IMG/VR virus record: IMGVR_UViG_3300042891_001180
From: a virus
Reading direction: 5' to 3' (one strand)
Length of the DNA stretch: 64,000 bases
Shown: in pieces, positions 19,622-63,534 of the stretch
Layout of the letters: each line of letters begins with the position of its first letter
Position numbering within the stretch: the stretch's first letter is position 1
Notes under the pieces: model-generated
Seen by the model: the letters and a program-made list of their open reading frames with translations, nothing else
What the model was told of the DNA's origin: nothing
The model's database searches: none
Made by a program: the position numbers and the translations under genes

Positions 19622-20515
19622 TTAGTCGTCATTTGCCAGTTTGGCAAAGTATGAAAGAGAATCATCTGCATCGTCGAAATCAGCCTTGGGCTTGGCGGCA
19701 GGCTTTGCTGCAACCGGCTTAGGCATATCTTCTTCAAGGCTTGTGACTTCAGCACGGGGTGCAGATGCACCTGTTGCAGCCAGAACCATTTGAAGCTTTG
19801 CTTTCAACTCGTCATATGACTTAAAGTTTTTAGGATCCACAAACTCAGCTAATGAGTGTTGCTTCTTCCAGATTGACTCCATTTGATCGTCATCTGCCAA
19901 AGGTGTTGCTGAATCAAATTCAGACTTATCGTAGTTGCGATAACCTTCAACATTACGAATCTTAAGTTTAAAGTTAGCACCCTTCCAGAAGTCGAAAGGA
20001 TTAACTGGATCCTCGTCCTCAAATTGAGGTTGCATCACATCCTTGATCTTATCAAAGATCTTCTTACCAAACTTATACAGCTTAACTGTACCTTCGTTCT
20101 CAGGGTGTGCAGGATCTTTAACCACGTAGATATTAGCAACATAGGTTAGGCGACGTTTTTGCTTACGTACCAGATCTTTGTTAGCCTCGATACCAGAATT
20201 CCACAACTCAGTATTGAGTTCAGAAACAGGATCGGCTTTACCCAGGGTTGTAAGAGAGTTCTCGATGTACCACTTACCTGTAGGGCCTTGGAAGCCATGG
20301 TTCCAAATACGAACCCAGGGTAGCTCTTCACCTGCTGATGGTGGTAGGAATCGAATGACAGCGTAGCCGTTACCAGCTTTATCTACTTCCGGTTGCCAGA
20401 AGCGGTCATCTTTTGCGTTGTCTTGAGTCTGGGGTGTTGCAATCTTTTCGACTTCTTTCATCAGCTTGTCGAAGCCACCGGTACTCTTCTTCATAGAATT
20501 AAAATCTAATGCCAT
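19622..20515 (-). CDS. gp32: Single-stranded DNA-binding protein gp32
   Basis: DDRFWQPEVDKAGNGYAVIRFLP, WYIENSLTT, FGKKIFDKI, NPFDFWKGANFKLKIR, YFAKLA. Confidence 0.97.
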   Translation of the reverse strand: MALDFNSMKKSTGGFDKLMKEVEKIATPQTQDNAKDDRFWQPEVDKAGNGYAVIRFLPPSAGEELPWVRIWNHGFQGPTGKWYIENSLTTLGKADPVSELNTELWNSGIEANKDLVRKQKRRLTYVANIYVVKDPAHPENEGTVKLYKFGKKIFDKIKDVMQPQFEDEDPVNPFDFWKGANFKLKIRNVEGYRNYDKSEFDSATPLADDDQMESIWKKQHSLAEFVDPKNFKSYDELKAKLQMVLAATGASAPRAEVTSLEEDMPKPVAAKPAAKPKADFDDADDSLSYFAKLANDD

Positions 20516-20746: not shown

Positions 20747-20954
20747 CTCTGTTACTGTCAACTGCAATAAACGGCCAGGCTGAAATACGTTTCGTAATTT
20801 CGGACTGGTGATGTGCAAGTTTAATCAAATATCGTTGGGTTTCTCTAATATGTTCGGACAGCTCCGTCATGCTGTCTTGCATGATACAAATAGACTTTTC
20901 AATCTCCGTGATACGGGCGTCAGAAAGGTCCAATTGCTCTTCGGTAAATTTCAT
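20736..20954 (-). CDS. Hypothetical coiled-coil protein
   Basis: ORF in the tightly packed gp59-gp32 operon. Confidence 0.55.
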   Translation of the reverse strand: MKFTEEQLDLSDARITEIEKSICIMQDSMTELSEHIRETQRYLIKLAHHQSEITKRISAWPFIAVDSNRDET

Positions 20955-21528
20955 TGTACTTGTCTTTTTTAATTTCTAGAAAAGGTGAATACTTCTTGAT
21001 AATTCTTGATGTATCCGGCCAGACTAAATCATCTTTCAGATCCTGATCTAACTGATCAGTAAAATTATTTAGCTTATTCAGGATTACAAGAGTCTCAATT
21101 GAGATATCGTTCCGAAGATACATTTTTACAATAGGTGGGTGTTGCCCATTATTGCATTCGAAGAGACCGTCAAAGGTAATATTGTTCTTATCAGCAAACA
21201 ATACAGCTTTATCTAGTTCTTTTTTAAACGTATATGAGATAGATTCTATACGCTTCTTCCATCCTTGGTAACGGTCTTTGGCTTCTACGTCAAATACACC
21301 GCCCCATCTATCACCGGACACAAAATTGGCTACCAAGAAGTCTACAATATCTTTATCCGAATAGGTTTCAGCAACACGGCGAATAGCTAAAAGATCTTTA
21401 CGTTTAAAGAAAGAGTTCTTGGTAGCACGAACTCGCCCTTTTTGTTCAATCACATTATAATTGTCTGTCGTAAAATGCAGGCGTAATGCCAAATAATAAC
21501 GATAAACTTCAAATGGTTCCATAATCAT
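20920..21528 (-). CDS. gp59: Helicase loader gp59
   Basis: YRYYLALRLHFTTDNYN, SFFKRKD, FLVANF, HPPIVKMYL..DISIETLVIL, KKYSPFL. Confidence 0.92.
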   Translation of the reverse strand: MIMEPFEVYRYYLALRLHFTTDNYNVIEQKGRVRATKNSFFKRKDLLAIRRVAETYSDKDIVDFLVANFVSGDRWGGVFDVEAKDRYQGWKKRIESISYTFKKELDKAVLFADKNNITFDGLFECNNGQHPPIVKMYLRNDISIETLVILNKLNNFTDQLDQDLKDDLVWPDTSRIIKKYSPFLEIKKDKYNEIYRRAIGPF

Positions 21529-21788: not shown

Positions 21789-22102
21789 ACAAAGTAAATA
21801 AGGCCTAGCAATACTGCTTGAATGGCGAAACCAAATCCAATTGTCACTACCATCAGCATATCTTTAAGTATAGCTGATTTCACAAAATAAAGCAATAGCC
21901 CCGTCCACAACATCAGGGTAATATCTAAAGGAGGCATCTTATCTGTTGCACCTGCCATAACGGCAATAAAGCCTGGAATAGTTGCACCGATTAATACCAC
22001 AACACTAATCCATGCAAACGTATCAGCTGTAGCTTTAGTAAAGCCTTCAAAGTAAGAGAATACTTGATTCTTTAATTGGTTAAATTTTTCCATTTTTCTC
22101 AC
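21785..22102 (-). CDS. Membrane protein with about three TM segments
   Basis: Hydrophobic segments; coupled to neighbouring genes. Confidence 0.65.
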   Translation of the reverse strand: MRKMEKFNQLKNQVFSYFEGFTKATADTFAWISVVVLIGATIPGFIAVMAGATDKMPPLDITLMLWTGLLLYFVKSAILKDMLMVVTIGFGFAIQAVLLGLIYFV

Positions 22103-22622
22103 CGTAAAATATATGACGACCGATTTGACTGATTTTTGGAAGATTCCAATTAGGATTTACATAATCGGCATGATAGTACATTGCCTTATGCATTGAAGGT
22201 AATCTAAAGTTCTCTAGAAGTACTTTCTTAGCCACCTCCATTGACTCTCTATAATGAGCATTAGATCTTACCTTAGGACCACTTTCACAGTACCATGAGA
22301 ACTGACAAATGACTCTACCGTAAACTACGTTCTTCTGATATACTACGTTACAGATATCAGATGGAAACTTACCTGACTCTGCCCGATTTATTGTAACTTG
22401 TGCTACTGCAACCTTACCTTCAAAGGGCTCTGTAGCCGCCTCGTGATAGATGTTCTTTGCAAGACAAGTTAACTGTCTGTCTCTTTCCTCCATTGTGATT
22501 GGGGTACCATTATACTGCTTAGTATTATGATATTGGATTCTACTGGCGGTAAATTTGGTAACTAAAAATACCATCAATACCACAAGACCTATTTTTAAAA
22601 ATAGATTAAAAGCTTTTACCAT
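22080..22622 (-). CDS. Cell wall hydrolase, SleB/Hydrolase_2 family, N-terminally anchored
   Basis: CLAKNIYHEA..E..EGKVAVAQVTINR..FPSDICNVVYQ, CQFSW, YYHADYVNPNW, IGRHIFY. Confidence 0.9.
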   Translation of the reverse strand: MVKAFNLFLKIGLVVLMVFLVTKFTASRIQYHNTKQYNGTPITMEERDRQLTCLAKNIYHEAATEPFEGKVAVAQVTINRAESGKFPSDICNVVYQKNVVYGRVICQFSWYCESGPKVRSNAHYRESMEVAKKVLLENFRLPSMHKAMYYHADYVNPNWNLPKISQIGRHIFYGEKNGKI

Positions 22623-22675: not shown

Positions 22676-22948
22676 TTACTTCTTACTAATAGTCTTAATG
22701 TTATCTTGAGGGATGTTAGAAACAAAACCATTCAAGACCTGAGCCTTGGCAATAATTTCAGTTTCTGAGGGATAGGCTGGATAGCCTGGATGCTCTGGAG
22801 GTGTCTGGCCGGCATGTTTTGCCGTCTCTACCTTTGTGGCCCAGTCGTTAGATATTACTTCGCGCTTACCGTAGTAGTCGTCACCAAGCATATCTTTGGC
22901 CATTTTGAGAAGTTCGAGACGAATCTCGAAGGGGGTCATGTTACTCAT
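22676..22948 (-). CDS. Conserved hypothetical phage protein
   Basis: TPFEIRLELLKMAKDML...YPSETEIIAKA; AAGGAG RBS. Confidence 0.75.
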   Translation of the reverse strand: MSNMTPFEIRLELLKMAKDMLGDDYYGKREVISNDWATKVETAKHAGQTPPEHPGYPAYPSETEIIAKAQVLNGFVSNIPQDNIKTISKK

Positions 22949-22980
22949 AATAATCTCCTTTGTGTGTATGAGTGTTAAAG

Positions 22981-23320
22981 ATGGTAGGTTATTCTGTTAC
23001 GAGGAAACCTACCGAAACCCTAAGCAGTGTTTAGGCTGCTAATGCGAACTTTGAGTCGTTTGCGTTTACTTTTGTTTAGTGTTAACGACAACTCTGTCGG
23101 ATCGTCCATCTTTATACTTATTGCCCTGTCGAATCTAAAACAGGCCCATCATAAAGACTCTTCCATGCGTTATGTGCTTCGAAATAACTTAACCAAACAC
23201 AATGCTCACATGCTCTACCACAACATGTCGTTGGTGGTATTGGTTCTAAGACCTTATGGTGGACCTGAAGGGATTTGCACCCTTGTCCAGAACTACTTTC
23301 GATTAACTTCATACGATCAT
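22981..23320 (-). ncRNA. ssrA: tmRNA, circularly permuted two-piece form (acceptor piece ~23320-23257, spacer 23256-23148, coding piece 23147-~22981)
   Basis: 5' GGGCCTG pairs with CAGGTCC-A-CCA and includes the G3:U70 Ala identity pair. GATTCGAC D-loop analogue; T-arm AAGGG-TGCAAAT-CCCTT; tag ANDSKFALAA* at 23063-23031. The CCA end lies upstream of the 5' GGG. Confidence 0.93.
23118..23312 (-). CDS. Putative 64 aa Oxidored-like Cys-motif protein overlapping the tmRNA precursor
   Basis: EPIPPTTCCGRACEHCVWLSYFE matches the oxidoreductase-like N-terminal (P..CC..GC..CVW..Y) pattern and is encoded inside the tmRNA spacer. Confidence 0.5.
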   Translation of the reverse strand: MKLIESSSGQGCKSLQVHHKVLEPIPPTTCCGRACEHCVWLSYFEAHNAWKSLYDGPVLDSTGQ

Positions 23321-23372
23321 AATCTTATTTAGGCGACCTAATTCTCAACCGCCCACATATGGATTATACATG

Positions 23373-24041
23373 CTAGGCAACAACTAATCCACTCTTTCTT
23401 TCATATAGGTCCCGAAAGTACATTAGCCTCTTTACATGGGTATTTCTACGTTCAACAAACACCTGGGGCTCTTCATCATCTACTGCAATTGCAACCACGG
23501 TTTGAGCAACCGGGATCTTAAACTGCTCTTCAAACATAATGGCATATGCCGAACATTGCATAAAGTAATTCTCAATATCTTTACTATCTTTGAGTCGTTT
23601 AGAAGTCTTAAAGTCAATAACAGATAATACCCCATCAAATTCTGCTACACAATCTACGGTACCAGCAATACGCAAATGATCAGAGTACATACGTAACTCT
23701 TGAGCATAAACGTTATTAATACGATGAAGAGTAGGTTTAAATTTATTAAACAGTTCTTGATCTAGAGGACTCTTAAATGCAGGTACTTTATTATCAATAT
23801 ACTGCTCACACAAAGTATGAATACGGGTACCCCGACCAGACGCCTTTTGTGATATTTTATTAGCTTCTTCTTCACCCACCCTTTTGCGCCACTCCATAAT
23901 ATAACCTATGTTATAAGCGGCAAGAACGGTAGTGATAGAAGGATACTTATTCCCCTCTGGGGTCACATAATACCGTGTACCGTTTTCGTTCAGTTGTTGT
24001 AGTTTGGGGACTTCACGGTCAAGCTTTACATGATTAAACAT
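23373..24041 (-). CDS. PD-(D/E)XK exonuclease (Cas4-like phage exonuclease)
   Basis: RYYVTPEGNKYPSITTVL, RGTRIH, AGTVDCVAEFDGVLSVIDFKTS, YFMQCSAYA. Confidence 0.9.
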   Translation of the reverse strand: MFNHVKLDREVPKLQQLNENGTRYYVTPEGNKYPSITTVLAAYNIGYIMEWRKRVGEEEANKISQKASGRGTRIHTLCEQYIDNKVPAFKSPLDQELFNKFKPTLHRINNVYAQELRMYSDHLRIAGTVDCVAEFDGVLSVIDFKTSKRLKDSKDIENYFMQCSAYAIMFEEQFKIPVAQTVVAIAVDDEEPQVFVERRNTHVKRLMYFRDLYERKSGLVVA

Positions 24042-24049
24042 ACGTTATT

Positions 24050-24697
24050 TTAATGATGTCCGGATAATACTTCAACTGCGTGGGCGAAATGTTTCTTACG
24101 GTCTTCTAAACCAATAGTACCACCGTTAATCTTTTTAGTCATCATAACGAAGTCGCCAGAATCGGCGTACTGGTTAAGATTGTTCTTATGCCAGAACCAG
24201 CATGCGGAGTGAATAGCGTAATAGGCATCTAAAAGAATATCAGGATTATCTAATAGTGTTTCATCCTGGAACATAAATCTTGAACAATTGCGATAGTTAT
24301 CTTTACCAGTCAATTGAAGGAGCCCTCGGCCTCTGAACTTCCACCCGTCACCAGATGATTCAGGTCCGTTACCCATCCTGCCACCATACGACTTATTGGC
24401 AATAAGTTCGGGCTTACCTGCGTATTGCTCCGCCACTCCAGCTGGGTACCGTTGAGGCCATATCCTCGTCAATGTAGCTGCTTTGTAGTTAAGGTTCTCT
24501 TCTAGCATTGAAAAGCCCCCTGACTCGTGTGCACACTGGGCAATGAAAGAAGCAACTCTTGGTACGGTTGTAATATTGTACTGAGGTAAAGCCTCACACA
24601 TACTTTCATACCAGTCATCAGGTCCCCCTAATGCCCGCGGCAGTAACTCTCTTACATGACTTTCAGTAAATTCGAAATCAAAACTCATATTATTCAA
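24050..24697 (-). CDS. Glycoside hydrolase family 19 endolysin
   Basis: FIAQCAHESGGF..LEENLNY, DGWKFRGRGLLQLTGKDNY, SACWFW, TKKINGGTIGLEDR. Confidence 0.93.
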   Translation of the reverse strand: MNNMSFDFEFTESHVRELLPRALGGPDDWYESMCEALPQYNITTVPRVASFIAQCAHESGGFSMLEENLNYKAATLTRIWPQRYPAGVAEQYAGKPELIANKSYGGRMGNGPESSGDGWKFRGRGLLQLTGKDNYRNCSRFMFQDETLLDNPDILLDAYYAIHSACWFWHKNNLNQYADSGDFVMMTKKINGGTIGLEDRKKHFAHAVEVLSGHH

Positions 24698-25142: not shown

Positions 25143-25913
25143 TTATTTATCACAAATATCTTCGTATCTAATCTTAGCCAATATATAGTCTTTAACTAAA
25201 GAACTTCTCACAATATCAGCCGCTTCAAATTCTATTTTAGTAAACGCGCCCATGTGATAGGCAATATCAAAAAACTTAAGAATACCACTCACATCTGTCT
25301 TCTTCTTATTTAAGTCCGTTTGTCTATAGTCCCCACACCATATAATCTTCGATCTATAACCTACACGGGTCATAACAGTATCAATCTCTTCAAAGTTCAT
25401 ATTCTGCATCTCATCGACAATAATAATTGCATCGTCAAATGACATACCACGAATAAAAGAAGTTGAAATAAATTCAATATGACCTTGTTCGGCTAACCTA
25501 TCGTATGCATCTTTTCTATCAAACAAGGTAGCGCAAATTTGACGATATGGTTGTTGATATATATCCAACTTCTCGTCGATGTCACCAGGTAGGTGACCCA
25601 TCTCCCTGGACTGTACTGCCGAACGAACTATAATAATTTTATTAAAAGGATTTGTCTTATCTAATACTTCTTCTAAAGCTTTGTATACTGCGATAAATGT
25701 TTTTCCTGTACCTGCAACTCCGTGAAGAGCTAAGAAGTAATCGCCTCTTTTATATGCGTCGTAAAATAGCCTTTGATTATCTGTTAACGGATCAAATGAT
25801 TTTAGATGATCTATTTTTAATCTAAGTGCATTTGTTTGTTGAATTTTTGAACTTGTGTGTCTTTCCTCGGTATCGTGAACAATAGGAAGTTTCGCAGCTC
25901 TTTTAGTAGACAT
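25143..25913 (-). CDS. phoH: PhoH-like ATPase
   Basis: Walker A GVAGTGKT, MGHLPGD, FIRGMSFDDAIIIVDEMQN, GDYRQTDL, DIVRSSLVK. Confidence 0.95.
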   Translation of the reverse strand: MSTKRAAKLPIVHDTEERHTSSKIQQTNALRLKIDHLKSFDPLTDNQRLFYDAYKRGDYFLALHGVAGTGKTFIAVYKALEEVLDKTNPFNKIIIVRSAVQSREMGHLPGDIDEKLDIYQQPYRQICATLFDRKDAYDRLAEQGHIEFISTSFIRGMSFDDAIIIVDEMQNMNFEEIDTVMTRVGYRSKIIWCGDYRQTDLNKKKTDVSGILKFFDIAYHMGAFTKIEFEAADIVRSSLVKDYILAKIRYEDICDK

Positions 25914-63419: not shown

Positions 63420-63462
63420 CAGTTATACCCCAGTATAATATTATGAGGTATAATAATAAAGG

Positions 63463-63534
63463 GTGCAGGGGAAGGAGTCGCACCTACGACCTCTGGATTA
63501 TGAGTCCAGCGCTCTTCTACTGAGCTACCCTGCG
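63463..63534 (-). tRNA. tRNA-Met (CAT), initiator-like
   Basis: Cloverleaf CGCAGGG/CCCTGCA with C1:A72 mismatch; D-arm GCTC/GAGC; anticodon arm CTGGA-CTCATAA-TCCAG; T-arm GTAGG-TGCGACT-CCTTC; CCA not encoded. Confidence 0.88.

What the first reader, a model, noticed from the sequence alone, without database searches (positions are those of the whole stretch)
23118..23332. Protein-coding ORF threaded through a permuted tmRNA precursor, with a Cys-cluster motif exactly inside the excised spacer
Seen: the 109 nt spacer (23256-23148) between the CCA end and the 5' GGG encodes KVLEPIPPTTCCGRACEHCVWLSYFEAHNAWKSLYD. The frame has no ATG within the spacer. It opens at ATG 23312 in the acceptor piece, reads stop-free through the T-arm and CCA, and stops at 23118 inside the coding piece. 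A late-like promoter CTAAATA (23332-23326) is followed 5 nt later by a minigene ATG-ATC-GTA-TGA whose stop overlaps the ORF start (ATGA). Known: the P..CC..(G/A)C..CVW..Y pattern is the oxidoreductase-like N-terminal (Oxidored-like) domain, a likely metal/Fe-S binder, and two-piece tmRNA spacers are normally non-coding and removed during maturation. Inference: one transcript is either the mRNA for a small metal-binding protein or is processed into tmRNA. These fates are mutually exclusive, which could form a switch coupling ribosome rescue to metal or redox state.
Basis: partly seen in the sequence, partly recalled or inferred. Interest (0 to 1): 0.9.

Follow-up and report, generated by a model that had tools for sequence, protein, structure and literature searches.

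The report
Cysteine mini-protein gene inside phage tmRNA
In this uncultured freshwater T4-like phage, the spacer cut out of the two-piece ribosome-rescue RNA (tmRNA) encodes a small four-cysteine protein kept by selection; it has no start or stop codon of its own, so it can only be read from the unprocessed RNA.

Summary
The core observation holds. A permuted tmRNA lies on the minus strand (ARAGORN, Rfam 110.8 and 107.5 bits). Its 109-nt spacer (23256-23148) sits inside a 64-codon ORF (23312-23118) that matches Pfam Oxidored-like (PF09791, 35.8 bits, cut-off 24).

Twenty-four distinct spacers in at least three diverged phage tmRNA lineages carry this domain. Pooled pN/pS for four independent pairs is 0.108 (bootstrap 0.046-0.221). 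The other two frames hold stops in the window's clade, and length changes are 6 or 51 nt. So the spacer is, or recently was, translated. No variant has a conserved internal start, which leaves the ATG in the acceptor piece; this is inferred, not shown.

The CTAAATA "late promoter" and the minigene are not supported. The redox or metal switch is untested.

Two wider patterns emerged:
- 38 of 95 longer spacers in this tmRNA family hold other small genes with their own ribosome-binding site and stop.
- The Oxidored-like gene also occurs just upstream of phage tmRNA genes, once coupled to thioredoxin.

This scan had already noted protein-coding tmRNA spacers on other DNA. I found no description in the papers I could search.

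The parts
23363..23370 (-). TGTATAAT, an extended -10-like element. It is the best-conserved promoter candidate for the tmRNA transcript.
   Evidence: Read. It is conserved, usually as TGTATAAT, in all close relatives shown, including L074, where a small gene lies between it and the tmRNA. Function not shown.
23326..23332 (-).
   Evidence: Present and conserved within the window's clade. The motif is not enriched in the window (11 found, 24.6 expected) and has no strand bias. TATAAATA, by contrast, is 8 of 8 on the minus strand.
23309..23320 (-). Four-codon 'minigene' ATG-ATC-GTA-TGA
   Evidence: Its ATG is ACG in the other 15 distinct 109-nt Oxidored-type loci. Not a conserved feature.
23257..23318 (-). 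tmRNA acceptor piece: P2 strand, T-arm, 3' acceptor strand and CCA (23259-23257)
   Evidence: Rfam RF04321 alignment. The fold recovers the T-arm and the acceptor stem. The T stem shows compensatory changes among relatives. The acceptor stem has G-U at its third pair (read).
23118..23312 (-). 64-codon ORF plus stop. Codons 1-19 and the first two bases of codon 20 are acceptor-piece RNA, the 36 whole codons 21-56 lie in the spacer, and codons 57-64 plus TAA lie in the coding piece.
   Evidence: ATG 23312 is the first start after an in-frame TAA five codons upstream (read).
23148..23256 (-). Intervening sequence (spacer), 109 nt, removed when the two-piece tmRNA matures
   Evidence: Boundaries. 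Sixteen distinct 109-nt and eight distinct 115-nt homologous spacers were found.
23157..23246 (-). Stretch that matches Pfam PF09791 Oxidored-like (residues 23-52)
   Evidence: E 6.3e-9, 35.8 bits, cut-off 24. A profile of the spacer peptides finds 347 proteins at E <= 1e-3.
23199..23225 (-). Four-cysteine cluster CC-x3-C-x2-C (residues 30, 31, 35, 38)
   Evidence: All four Cys are invariant in a 60-sequence alignment. The window has Ala where at least 90% of sequences have Gly (residue 34).
23247..23257 (-). 5' arm of the stem that closes the spacer and extends the acceptor stem
   Evidence: Minimum-energy fold. Across 124 distinct spacers, 10.2 of 12 positions pair, against 7.1 when 5' and 3' ends are swapped between spacers.
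23150..23162 (-). 3' arm of the spacer-closing stem
22969..23147 (-). tmRNA coding piece. The tag reading frame is at 23063-23031 (ANDSKFALAA plus stop).
   Evidence: The 3' end is approximate (Rfam 22969, ARAGORN 22940).

Best explanation
The phage ssrA gene is circularly permuted: acceptor piece, then a 109-nt spacer, then the coding piece. Host tRNA-processing enzymes would cut the transcript after CCA (23257) and before G 23147 to give a working two-piece tmRNA.

The same primary transcript is also a messenger. A ribosome starts at ATG 23312, which lies in the conserved GUAUGAAG element of the acceptor piece. It reads through the T-arm and CCA. It then translates the 36 spacer codons that form an Oxidored-like four-cysteine domain, and stops at TAA 23120-23118, 27 nt inside the coding piece.

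The product would be a roughly 64-residue protein: a probably metal- or redox-active core flanked by RNA-dictated, likely disordered tails. Only an unprocessed precursor, or a nascent one, can encode the whole protein. A given molecule is therefore translated before it is processed, or instead of being processed.

Shown: the tmRNA, the domain, and purifying selection on the spacer in this frame. Inferred: the start codon, actual translation in this phage, and the metal or redox role.
For: tmRNA:
- Searches identify and fold it.
- T-stem compensatory changes and the G-U third pair argue that it is functional.

Domain:
- Pfam PF09791 scores above its cut-off.
- Free-standing homologues of 47-62 aa with their own start codons exist.

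Selection while in the spacer:
- Variable columns fall 4:7:16 by codon position, and both other frames contain stops.
- Pairwise dN/dS is 0.05-0.23 with synonymous sites near saturation.
- Four phylogenetically independent spacer-borne pairs pooled give pN/pS 0.108, bootstrap 0.046-0.221, with 0 of 2000 resamples at or above 1.
- Spacer lengths are 109, 115 and 58 nt, so they differ by multiples of three.
- L043 combines the window clade's acceptor piece with the 115-nt spacer type of another lineage, still in frame.

Start codon:
- No conserved in-frame start exists in any of the 24 spacer variants.
- The frame from the acceptor-piece triplet to CCA is open in 25 of 25 Oxidored-type loci.
- ATG plus open frame occurs in 23 of 25 Oxidored-type loci against 68 of 115 other loci (Fisher p 0.0009, not corrected for relatedness).
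- The two ACG loci have TTG four codons upstream.
- In L165 the domain lies upstream and reads through the acceptor piece in the same frame.

Structure model: residues 1-14 have pLDDT below 50, the core scores 77-89, and there is a helix at 39-54.
Against: - No Shine-Dalgarno sequence precedes ATG 23312.
- GUAUGAAG is an RNA feature found in 82 of 115 loci without the domain, so the ATG is not specific to this ORF.
- The ATG sits in the folded P2 region, and the ribosome would have to unwind the T-arm.
- Two domain-bearing loci have ACG in place of ATG.
- Some relatives look degraded: Cys to Tyr in L011, L014 and L064, and an in-frame 51-nt deletion of the Cys cluster in L022 and L070.
- The window's own copy has Ala at a near-invariant Gly.
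- There are no expression data.
- The sample is short, 27-36 codons per comparison.
Confidence: 0.62

Rival explanations
1. Relic in this phage. The domain was functional in ancestors, or when it lay upstream of the tmRNA. In the window's phage it is an untranslated remnant, kept open only because it is young and because the spacer ends are held by the RNA stem.
For: - No ribosome-binding site, and no start or stop inside the spacer.
- The window has Ala at a near-invariant Gly.
- Relatives carry a Cys-to-Tyr change or a deletion of the Cys cluster.
- The start ATG is explained by RNA conservation alone.
Against: - pN/pS is 0.108 across four independent spacer-borne pairs.
- Within the window's own 109-nt clade, pN/pS is 0.21 and variable columns fall 4:7:16 by codon position.
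- No frameshift or stop was seen in 24 distinct spacers.
- The layout persists in at least three diverged tmRNA lineages.
Confidence: 0.13
2. Feedback device. The ORF is placed across the tmRNA processing sites so that maturation turns its message into a start-less or stop-less fragment. The amount of the protein would then report on precursor processing or on trans-translation capacity, as with ArfA, whose stop-less mRNA is repressed by tmRNA. The reader's redox or metal switch is one version of this idea.
For: - The stop lies 27 nt beyond the RNase P site and the start lies before CCA.
- A precursor cut only at G 23147 would be a stop-less message for the whole domain (inference).
- Where the gene lies upstream, it often also runs into or through the acceptor piece: L165, L197, L195, L202.
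- Thioredoxin and peroxiredoxin are neighbours.
- ArfA precedent: abstract of PMC10107115.
Against: - No functional data exist.
- In L204 the gene ends before a separate sigma-70-like promoter for the tmRNA, so overlap is not obligatory.
- Overlaps are common in compact phage genomes.
- Most other spacer genes keep their own stop inside the spacer.
Confidence: 0.1
3. RNA-only constraint. The spacer is conserved because its structure is needed for folding or processing of the precursor, and the open frame and the Pfam match are incidental.
For: - The spacer ends form a conserved closing stem.
- The 3' half of the spacer is also retained in the deletion variant.
Against: - Substitutions concentrate at third codon positions.
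- The amino-acid motif is kept while synonymous sites are nearly saturated.
- Free-standing protein homologues with their own start codons exist.
- Unrelated spacers of 25-75 nt evidently suffice as spacers in intact tmRNA genes of relatives.
Confidence: 0.03

Closest known systems
Circularly permuted (two-piece) tmRNA genes: Rfam RF04321 and RF01850, Caulobacter, some Betaproteobacteria, and aquatic T4-like phages such as OM43 phage Melnitz (PMC9004378)
   Same: Gene order is acceptor piece with CCA, spacer, then coding piece with an Ala-rich tag. The acceptor stem has the G-U pair. The tmRNA is phage-borne in a T4-like aquatic myovirus.
   Different: The spacer is 109 nt, against about 19 unaligned positions at that point in the Rfam beta model, and it carries a selected protein domain. 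The 2025 tmRNA database paper (PMC11915505) reports only a tRNA gene and a repeat element inside spacers. I found no mention of ORFs.
Self-contained small-gene cassettes in spacers of the same phage tmRNA family
   Same: Same slot, same closing stem, same kind of phage.
   Different: Those cassettes bring a ribosome-binding site (UAAGGAG-like) directly after CCA. Their stop is usually the UGA of the last four spacer bases, so the excised spacer is a complete mini-message. The window's ORF has neither. It borrows its start from the acceptor piece and its stop from the coding piece.
Free-standing Oxidored-like (PF09791) mini-proteins next to phage tmRNA genes (L195, L197, L165, L202, L204)
   Same: Same domain, and partly near-identical DNA: the L195 gene aligns over the whole length of the 115-nt spacers. 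Same neighbourhood downstream of the PD-(D/E)XK exonuclease gene.
   Different: The gene lies upstream of the acceptor piece, with its own ATG. In L195 it is coupled to a thioredoxin gene through an ATGA overlap.
Eukaryotic Oxidored-like proteins: human OXLD1, and chain o of Chaetomium thermophilum complex I (PDB 7ZM7)
   Same: The P-x-x-P-x2-CC-x-GC-x2-CVW-x-Y motif. The profile of the spacer peptides matches 7ZM7 chain o at E 4.1e-6.
   Different: Those proteins are long and mitochondrial, and their function is poorly defined. That chain o is the NDUFV3-site subunit described in PMC9699679 is my inference from names, not checked. No phage role can be transferred.
Dual-function RNAs and ORF-bearing inserts in stable-RNA genes: SgrS/SgrT, RNAIII/hld, and homing-endonuclease ORFs in group I introns of tmRNA genes (own knowledge; introns also in PMC11915505)
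   Same: One transcript yields both a stable functional RNA and a protein.
   Different: Here the ORF is not confined to an excised element. It shares nucleotides with the tRNA-like domain and the P2 region of the mature RNA.

Membership tests
Permuted two-piece tmRNA (RF04321 / RF01850) | Covariance-model match above the gathering score, with the acceptor piece upstream of the coding piece | tested here: met
   110.8 bits (cut-off 47) and 107.5 bits (cut-off 84), full-length matches. ARAGORN calls a permuted tmRNA.
Permuted two-piece tmRNA (RF04321 / RF01850) | Encoded CCA end, T-arm, and an acceptor stem with G-U at the third pair (alanine identity) | tested here: met
   CCA at 23259-23257. 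GGGCCUG pairs with CAGGUCC, giving G3-U (read). The fold recovers both helices. The T stem co-varies in relatives.
Permuted two-piece tmRNA (RF04321 / RF01850) | Tag reading frame ending in a hydrophobic Ala-rich degradation signal | tested here: met
   ANDSKFALAA plus stop at 23063-23031. Relatives encode ANDEKYALAA, ANDSQFALAA and similar tags.
Permuted two-piece tmRNA (RF04321 / RF01850) | Processing into two pieces, and activity in trans-translation | not testable with these tools
   Needs Northern blots, RACE and a rescue assay.
Pfam PF09791 Oxidored-like | Score above the curated cut-off | tested here: met
   35.8 bits against 24, E 6.3e-9, profile positions 10-39 of 46.
Pfam PF09791 Oxidored-like | Invariant P-x2-P and four-Cys pattern followed by V-W | tested here: met
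   P24, P27, C30, C31, C35 and C38 are invariant in 60 sequences, and V39 and W40 are present. One departure: Ala at the near-invariant Gly 34.
Pfam PF09791 Oxidored-like | Metal or Fe-S binding, or redox activity | not testable with these tools
   Pfam gives no function. The structure model has no ligand. The only solved relative is 7ZM7 chain o.
Self-contained spacer cassette (ribosome-binding site after CCA, stop inside the spacer) | Shine-Dalgarno sequence plus ATG or GTG within the first 30 nt of the spacer | tested here: not met
   None in the window or in any of the 24 Oxidored-type spacers. The window starts with UAAGG, but no start codon follows.
Self-contained spacer cassette (ribosome-binding site after CCA, stop inside the spacer) | Stop codon at or before the last bases of the spacer | tested here: not met
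   The frame reads UAU-GAU-GGG across the junction and stops 27 nt into the coding piece. In 19 cassettes the stop ends 1 nt before the spacer end.
ArfA-like control by a stop-less message | The product is tagged and degraded by tmRNA when made from the cleaved message | not testable with these tools
   Only the geometry fits: the stop lies beyond the RNase P site. No data.

The most novel reading that the evidence does not exclude
The Oxidored-like mini-protein is a functional partner or sensor of the phage tmRNA, not a passenger. It is linked to phage tmRNA genes in at least three layouts. In most of them its reading frame crosses a tmRNA processing site. Maturation would then convert its message into a start-less or stop-less fragment, so the protein's level would inversely report processing or trans-translation capacity (ArfA-like), possibly with a thiol or redox input through thioredoxin.
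Probability: 0.12. Interest if true: 0.9.

Novelty: new variant of a known kind. Interest (0 to 1): 0.7.

Why it matters
tmRNA spacers have been treated as throw-away RNA. Here a spacer, together with parts of the mature tRNA-like and P2 regions, is under protein-level selection. The same nucleotides therefore serve two codes, and one transcript must divide its time between being a messenger and becoming a stable RNA.

The family as a whole shows the spacer to be an exchangeable gene slot in abundant aquatic phages. Gene finders and tmRNA annotators both tend to mishandle it.

The repeated linkage of a four-cysteine domain of unknown function with ribosome rescue RNA, thioredoxin and peroxiredoxin gives a concrete way to study that domain, which also occurs in human mitochondrial OXLD1. 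The ArfA-like reading is directly testable with a cloned 450-nt locus.

Tried and rejected
- **DNA search of GenBank phages.** blastn of the locus against 50,697 GenBank phage records found no match. tblastn of the ORF and of a free-standing homologue also found none. The layout is known only from metagenomes.
- **PHROGs.** No family for the ORF.
- **Whole genome.** None is held for the window.
- **Late promoter.** CTAAATA is not enriched and shows no strand bias, so it was rejected as evidence. A sigma-70-like TTGAGA-18-GATTAT match is no better than shuffles give.
- **Minigene coupling.** Rejected, because its ATG is unique to the window among the 109-nt loci.
- **Internal start codons.** Only a non-conserved ATA in the window and a TTG in L072/L073.
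- **Bacterial linkage.** The one genome-contig hit (Variovorax) has the domain gene far from any tmRNA. Four of the 151 Burkholderiales genomes searched had a beta-type tmRNA over the cut-off, and none has the Cys motif in the roughly 1.5 kb fetched on either side of it. The linkage therefore looks phage-specific in what was searched.
- **Fold search.** Foldseek against the PDB found no match for the model.
- **Conserved hairpin inside the spacer.** By eye, changes are only partly compensatory, so this was not pursued.
- **Origin of the free-standing start.** The first five codons in L195 (MKPNE) resemble the acceptor-piece codons of L096 (MKPSE). That stretch overlaps the end of the thioredoxin gene, so I treat this as suggestive only.

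Full report
**What is there.** The window comes from an uncultured T4-like phage. Nearby genes on the minus strand are:
- gp32 (19622-20515)
- gp59 (20920-21528)
- a cell-wall hydrolase (22080-22622)
- a PD-(D/E)XK exonuclease (23373-24041)
- an endolysin-like protein (24050-24697)
- PhoH (25143-25913)

The nearest GenBank phages are cyanomyophages, matching at about 72-76% identity over gp32 only. Related contigs come mostly from JGI/IMG metagenome records, plus a few marine ones.

ARAGORN and Rfam both call a circularly permuted tmRNA on the minus strand. The acceptor piece runs from about 23318 to CCA at 23259-23257. The spacer is 23256-23148, and the coding piece starts at G 23147. The tag frame encodes ANDSKFALAA at 23063-23031. 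The acceptor stem has the G-U third pair. The T stem changes in a compensatory way among relatives. A plain energy fold recovers P2, the T-arm, the acceptor stem and a further stem formed by the two ends of the spacer.

**The ORF.** Translation of 23312-23118 gives 64 residues and a stop.
- Residues 1-19 and most of codon 20 are dictated by acceptor-piece RNA.
- The next 36 codons lie wholly in the spacer.
- The last 8 codons and the TAA lie in the coding piece.

Pfam scores residues 23-52 as Oxidored-like, PF09791, at 35.8 bits against a cut-off of 24.

**Is it coding?** I collected relatives in three ways: by protein pattern in IMG/VR, by a DNA pattern for the acceptor piece in IMG/VR, and by a T-loop plus acceptor-strand pattern in metagenomes. 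This gave 125 distinct spacers of 25-491 nt.

Twenty-four of them carry the Oxidored-like frame: sixteen of 109 nt (the window's clade) and eight of 115 nt. They sit in at least three diverged acceptor-piece lineages.
- Within the 109-nt set, 27 columns vary, 4:7:16 by codon position. Pooled pN/pS is 0.21, and both other frames contain stops in every pair.
- Between lineages, dN/dS is 0.05-0.23 with synonymous sites close to saturation.
- Four phylogenetically independent spacer-borne pairs pooled give pN/pS 0.108, bootstrap 0.046-0.221.
- Length differences are 6 nt, or 51 nt in a deletion variant.
- L043 joins the window clade's acceptor piece to the other lineage's 115-nt spacer, still in frame. 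The spacer has therefore been exchanged as a unit.

The spacer has thus been kept as protein-coding sequence while sitting inside the tmRNA gene. There are caveats. The comparisons are short. The two spacer ends are also held by the RNA stem. A few copies look damaged: Cys to Tyr in three loci, an in-frame loss of the Cys cluster in L022/L070, and Ala for a near-invariant Gly in the window itself.

**Where does translation start and stop?** No spacer variant has a conserved in-frame start. The only start upstream is ATG 23312, the first start after an in-frame TAA. It belongs to GUAUGAAG, an element of the acceptor piece that also occurs in 82 of 115 loci without the domain. The ATG therefore exists for RNA reasons, and the ORF appears to exploit it.
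- ATG plus an open frame to CCA is found in 23 of 25 domain-bearing loci and in 68 of 115 others (p 0.0009, relatedness ignored).
- The two exceptions have ACG, with TTG four codons upstream.
- No Shine-Dalgarno sequence precedes the ATG.
- In diverged loci, a TTGACA-17-TATAAT promoter ends 15 nt before the ATG. The leader would then be only about 8 nt (my reading).
- In the window's clade, the best-conserved promoter candidate is TGTATAAT at 23370-23363.

The minigene ATG is unique to the window among the 109-nt loci. Stop positions vary from 3 to 19 codons past the spacer. That fits a tail of no importance.

The structure model agrees with this picture. Residues 1-14 have pLDDT below 50, the 10-residue blocks over residues 21-50 average 77-89, and there is a helix at 39-54.

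**Consequence.** Start, domain and stop lie on three different processing products. Only the precursor can encode the protein. That is a matter of geometry, not evidence of regulation. A molecule could be translated first and processed afterwards, since the acceptor stem cannot form until the coding piece has been transcribed. A precursor cut only at the RNase P site would be a stop-less message for the whole domain. This invites comparison with ArfA (abstract of PMC10107115), but nothing here tests it.

**The wider slot.**
- Short spacers of 25-75 nt (30 distinct) are plain hairpins.
- Of the 95 distinct spacers of 76 nt or more, 38 begin right after CCA with a UAAGGAG-like ribosome-binding site and an ATG or GTG, and hold an ORF of 15-122 codons.
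- In 19 of these, the stop is the UGA in the last four bases of the spacer.
- The reverse-complement control gives 0 of 95.
- The ribosome-binding site and the stop lie in the two arms of the closing stem, whose ends co-vary (10.2 of 12 positions paired against 7.1 when ends are swapped).
- Contents include many membrane-type peptides, an 86-residue CxxCxxCC (PF03692) protein and a 122-residue protein.

The window's ORF is the unusual case that uses neither built-in signal.

**Linkage of the domain with tmRNA.** A profile of the spacer peptides finds 347 proteins at E <= 1e-3 among 1.84 billion. The best non-spacer hits are 47-62-residue proteins with their own start. For six of the seven examined, the gene lies directly upstream of a permuted tmRNA or a remnant of one.
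- L195: thioredoxin, then the domain gene (ATGA-coupled), then the tmRNA. The stop is the TGA inside GUAUGAAG.
- L202: the same stop arrangement.
- L197, seen on 19 contigs, and L165: the frame reads through the whole acceptor piece and stops 12 nt after CCA.
- L203: a remnant of the acceptor piece.
- L204: the gene ends before a separate promoter.

The L195 gene aligns with the 115-nt spacers over exactly the spacer's length.

A second small gene family occurs in both positions as well. It lies upstream of the acceptor piece in L074 and L043, and inside the spacer in L129. L045 has two acceptor pieces flanking it. This suggests a route into the spacer: duplication of the acceptor piece followed by deletion (inference).

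I found no such linkage in the bacteria searched, and no copy in 50,697 GenBank phages.

**What the protein does** is unknown. The four invariant Cys suggest a metal or disulfide centre. Thioredoxin and peroxiredoxin as neighbours of the free-standing copies suggest thiol-redox biology. The only solved relative is chain o of Chaetomium complex I (7ZM7).

**Novelty.** Phage two-piece tmRNA genes are known (PMC9004378). The 2025 tmRNA database paper mentions a tRNA gene and a repeat inside spacers, but no ORFs. I found no paper describing coding spacers.

This scan has already recorded the phenomenon on other DNA: 86 notes in at least 64 genomes, including one about a four-cysteine domain threaded through a tmRNA. 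Those notes agree with what I found independently. I do not count them as evidence.

Noticed in passing
L045 9770-10400 (same contig as L030): Two tmRNA acceptor pieces lie in tandem. The first is followed by a hairpin-type spacer remnant and a 42-codon gene with a TATAAATA just upstream. The second is followed by a membrane-peptide spacer and the coding piece. It looks like an intermediate by which an upstream gene could end up inside a spacer.
   Followed up: partly
L129 70-225; L074 2930-3060: The same small gene family (starts MYKVNF/MYKVKY) sits inside the spacer in L129/L154/L172, with a ribosome-binding site and a stop 1 nt before the spacer end. In L074, L043 and L045 it sits immediately upstream of the acceptor piece.
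   Followed up: partly
L089 4860-5117; L086 648-905: A 284-nt tmRNA spacer holds an 86-codon Cys-rich ORF that matches Pfam PF03692 (CxxCxxCC, putative zinc- or iron-chelating domain; 26.6 bits, cut-off 23). This is a second, unrelated cysteine protein in the same slot.
   Followed up: partly
L109 1804-2169; L138; L194 7805-8257: Spacers of 382-491 nt carry ORFs of 122-151 codons with no family match above cut-off. They are the longest cassettes seen in this tmRNA family.
   Followed up: no
L195 2253-2653: In a related phage, a thioredoxin gene and the free-standing Oxidored-like gene overlap by ATGA. Both lie between the PD-(D/E)XK exonuclease gene and the tmRNA, the same neighbourhood as in the window.
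   Followed up: partly
window 22676-22948 (-): A 90-codon ORF with a strong ribosome-binding site follows the tmRNA. It is conserved directly downstream of the tmRNA in many relatives (L039, L053, L056, L047, L072). No Pfam or PHROG match.
   Followed up: no
window, whole: All 8 copies of TATAAATA (the T4 late-promoter consensus) lie on the minus strand, the main coding strand here, although the count is not above chance. A tRNA-Met gene lies at 63461-63534 (-).
   Followed up: no
G001 (Variovorax sp. KK3) C1:5336339-5336652 = L211: This bacterium gives a beta-type permuted tmRNA match just over the cut-off (84.9 bits), far from its Oxidored-like gene. It could be prophage-borne.
   Followed up: no
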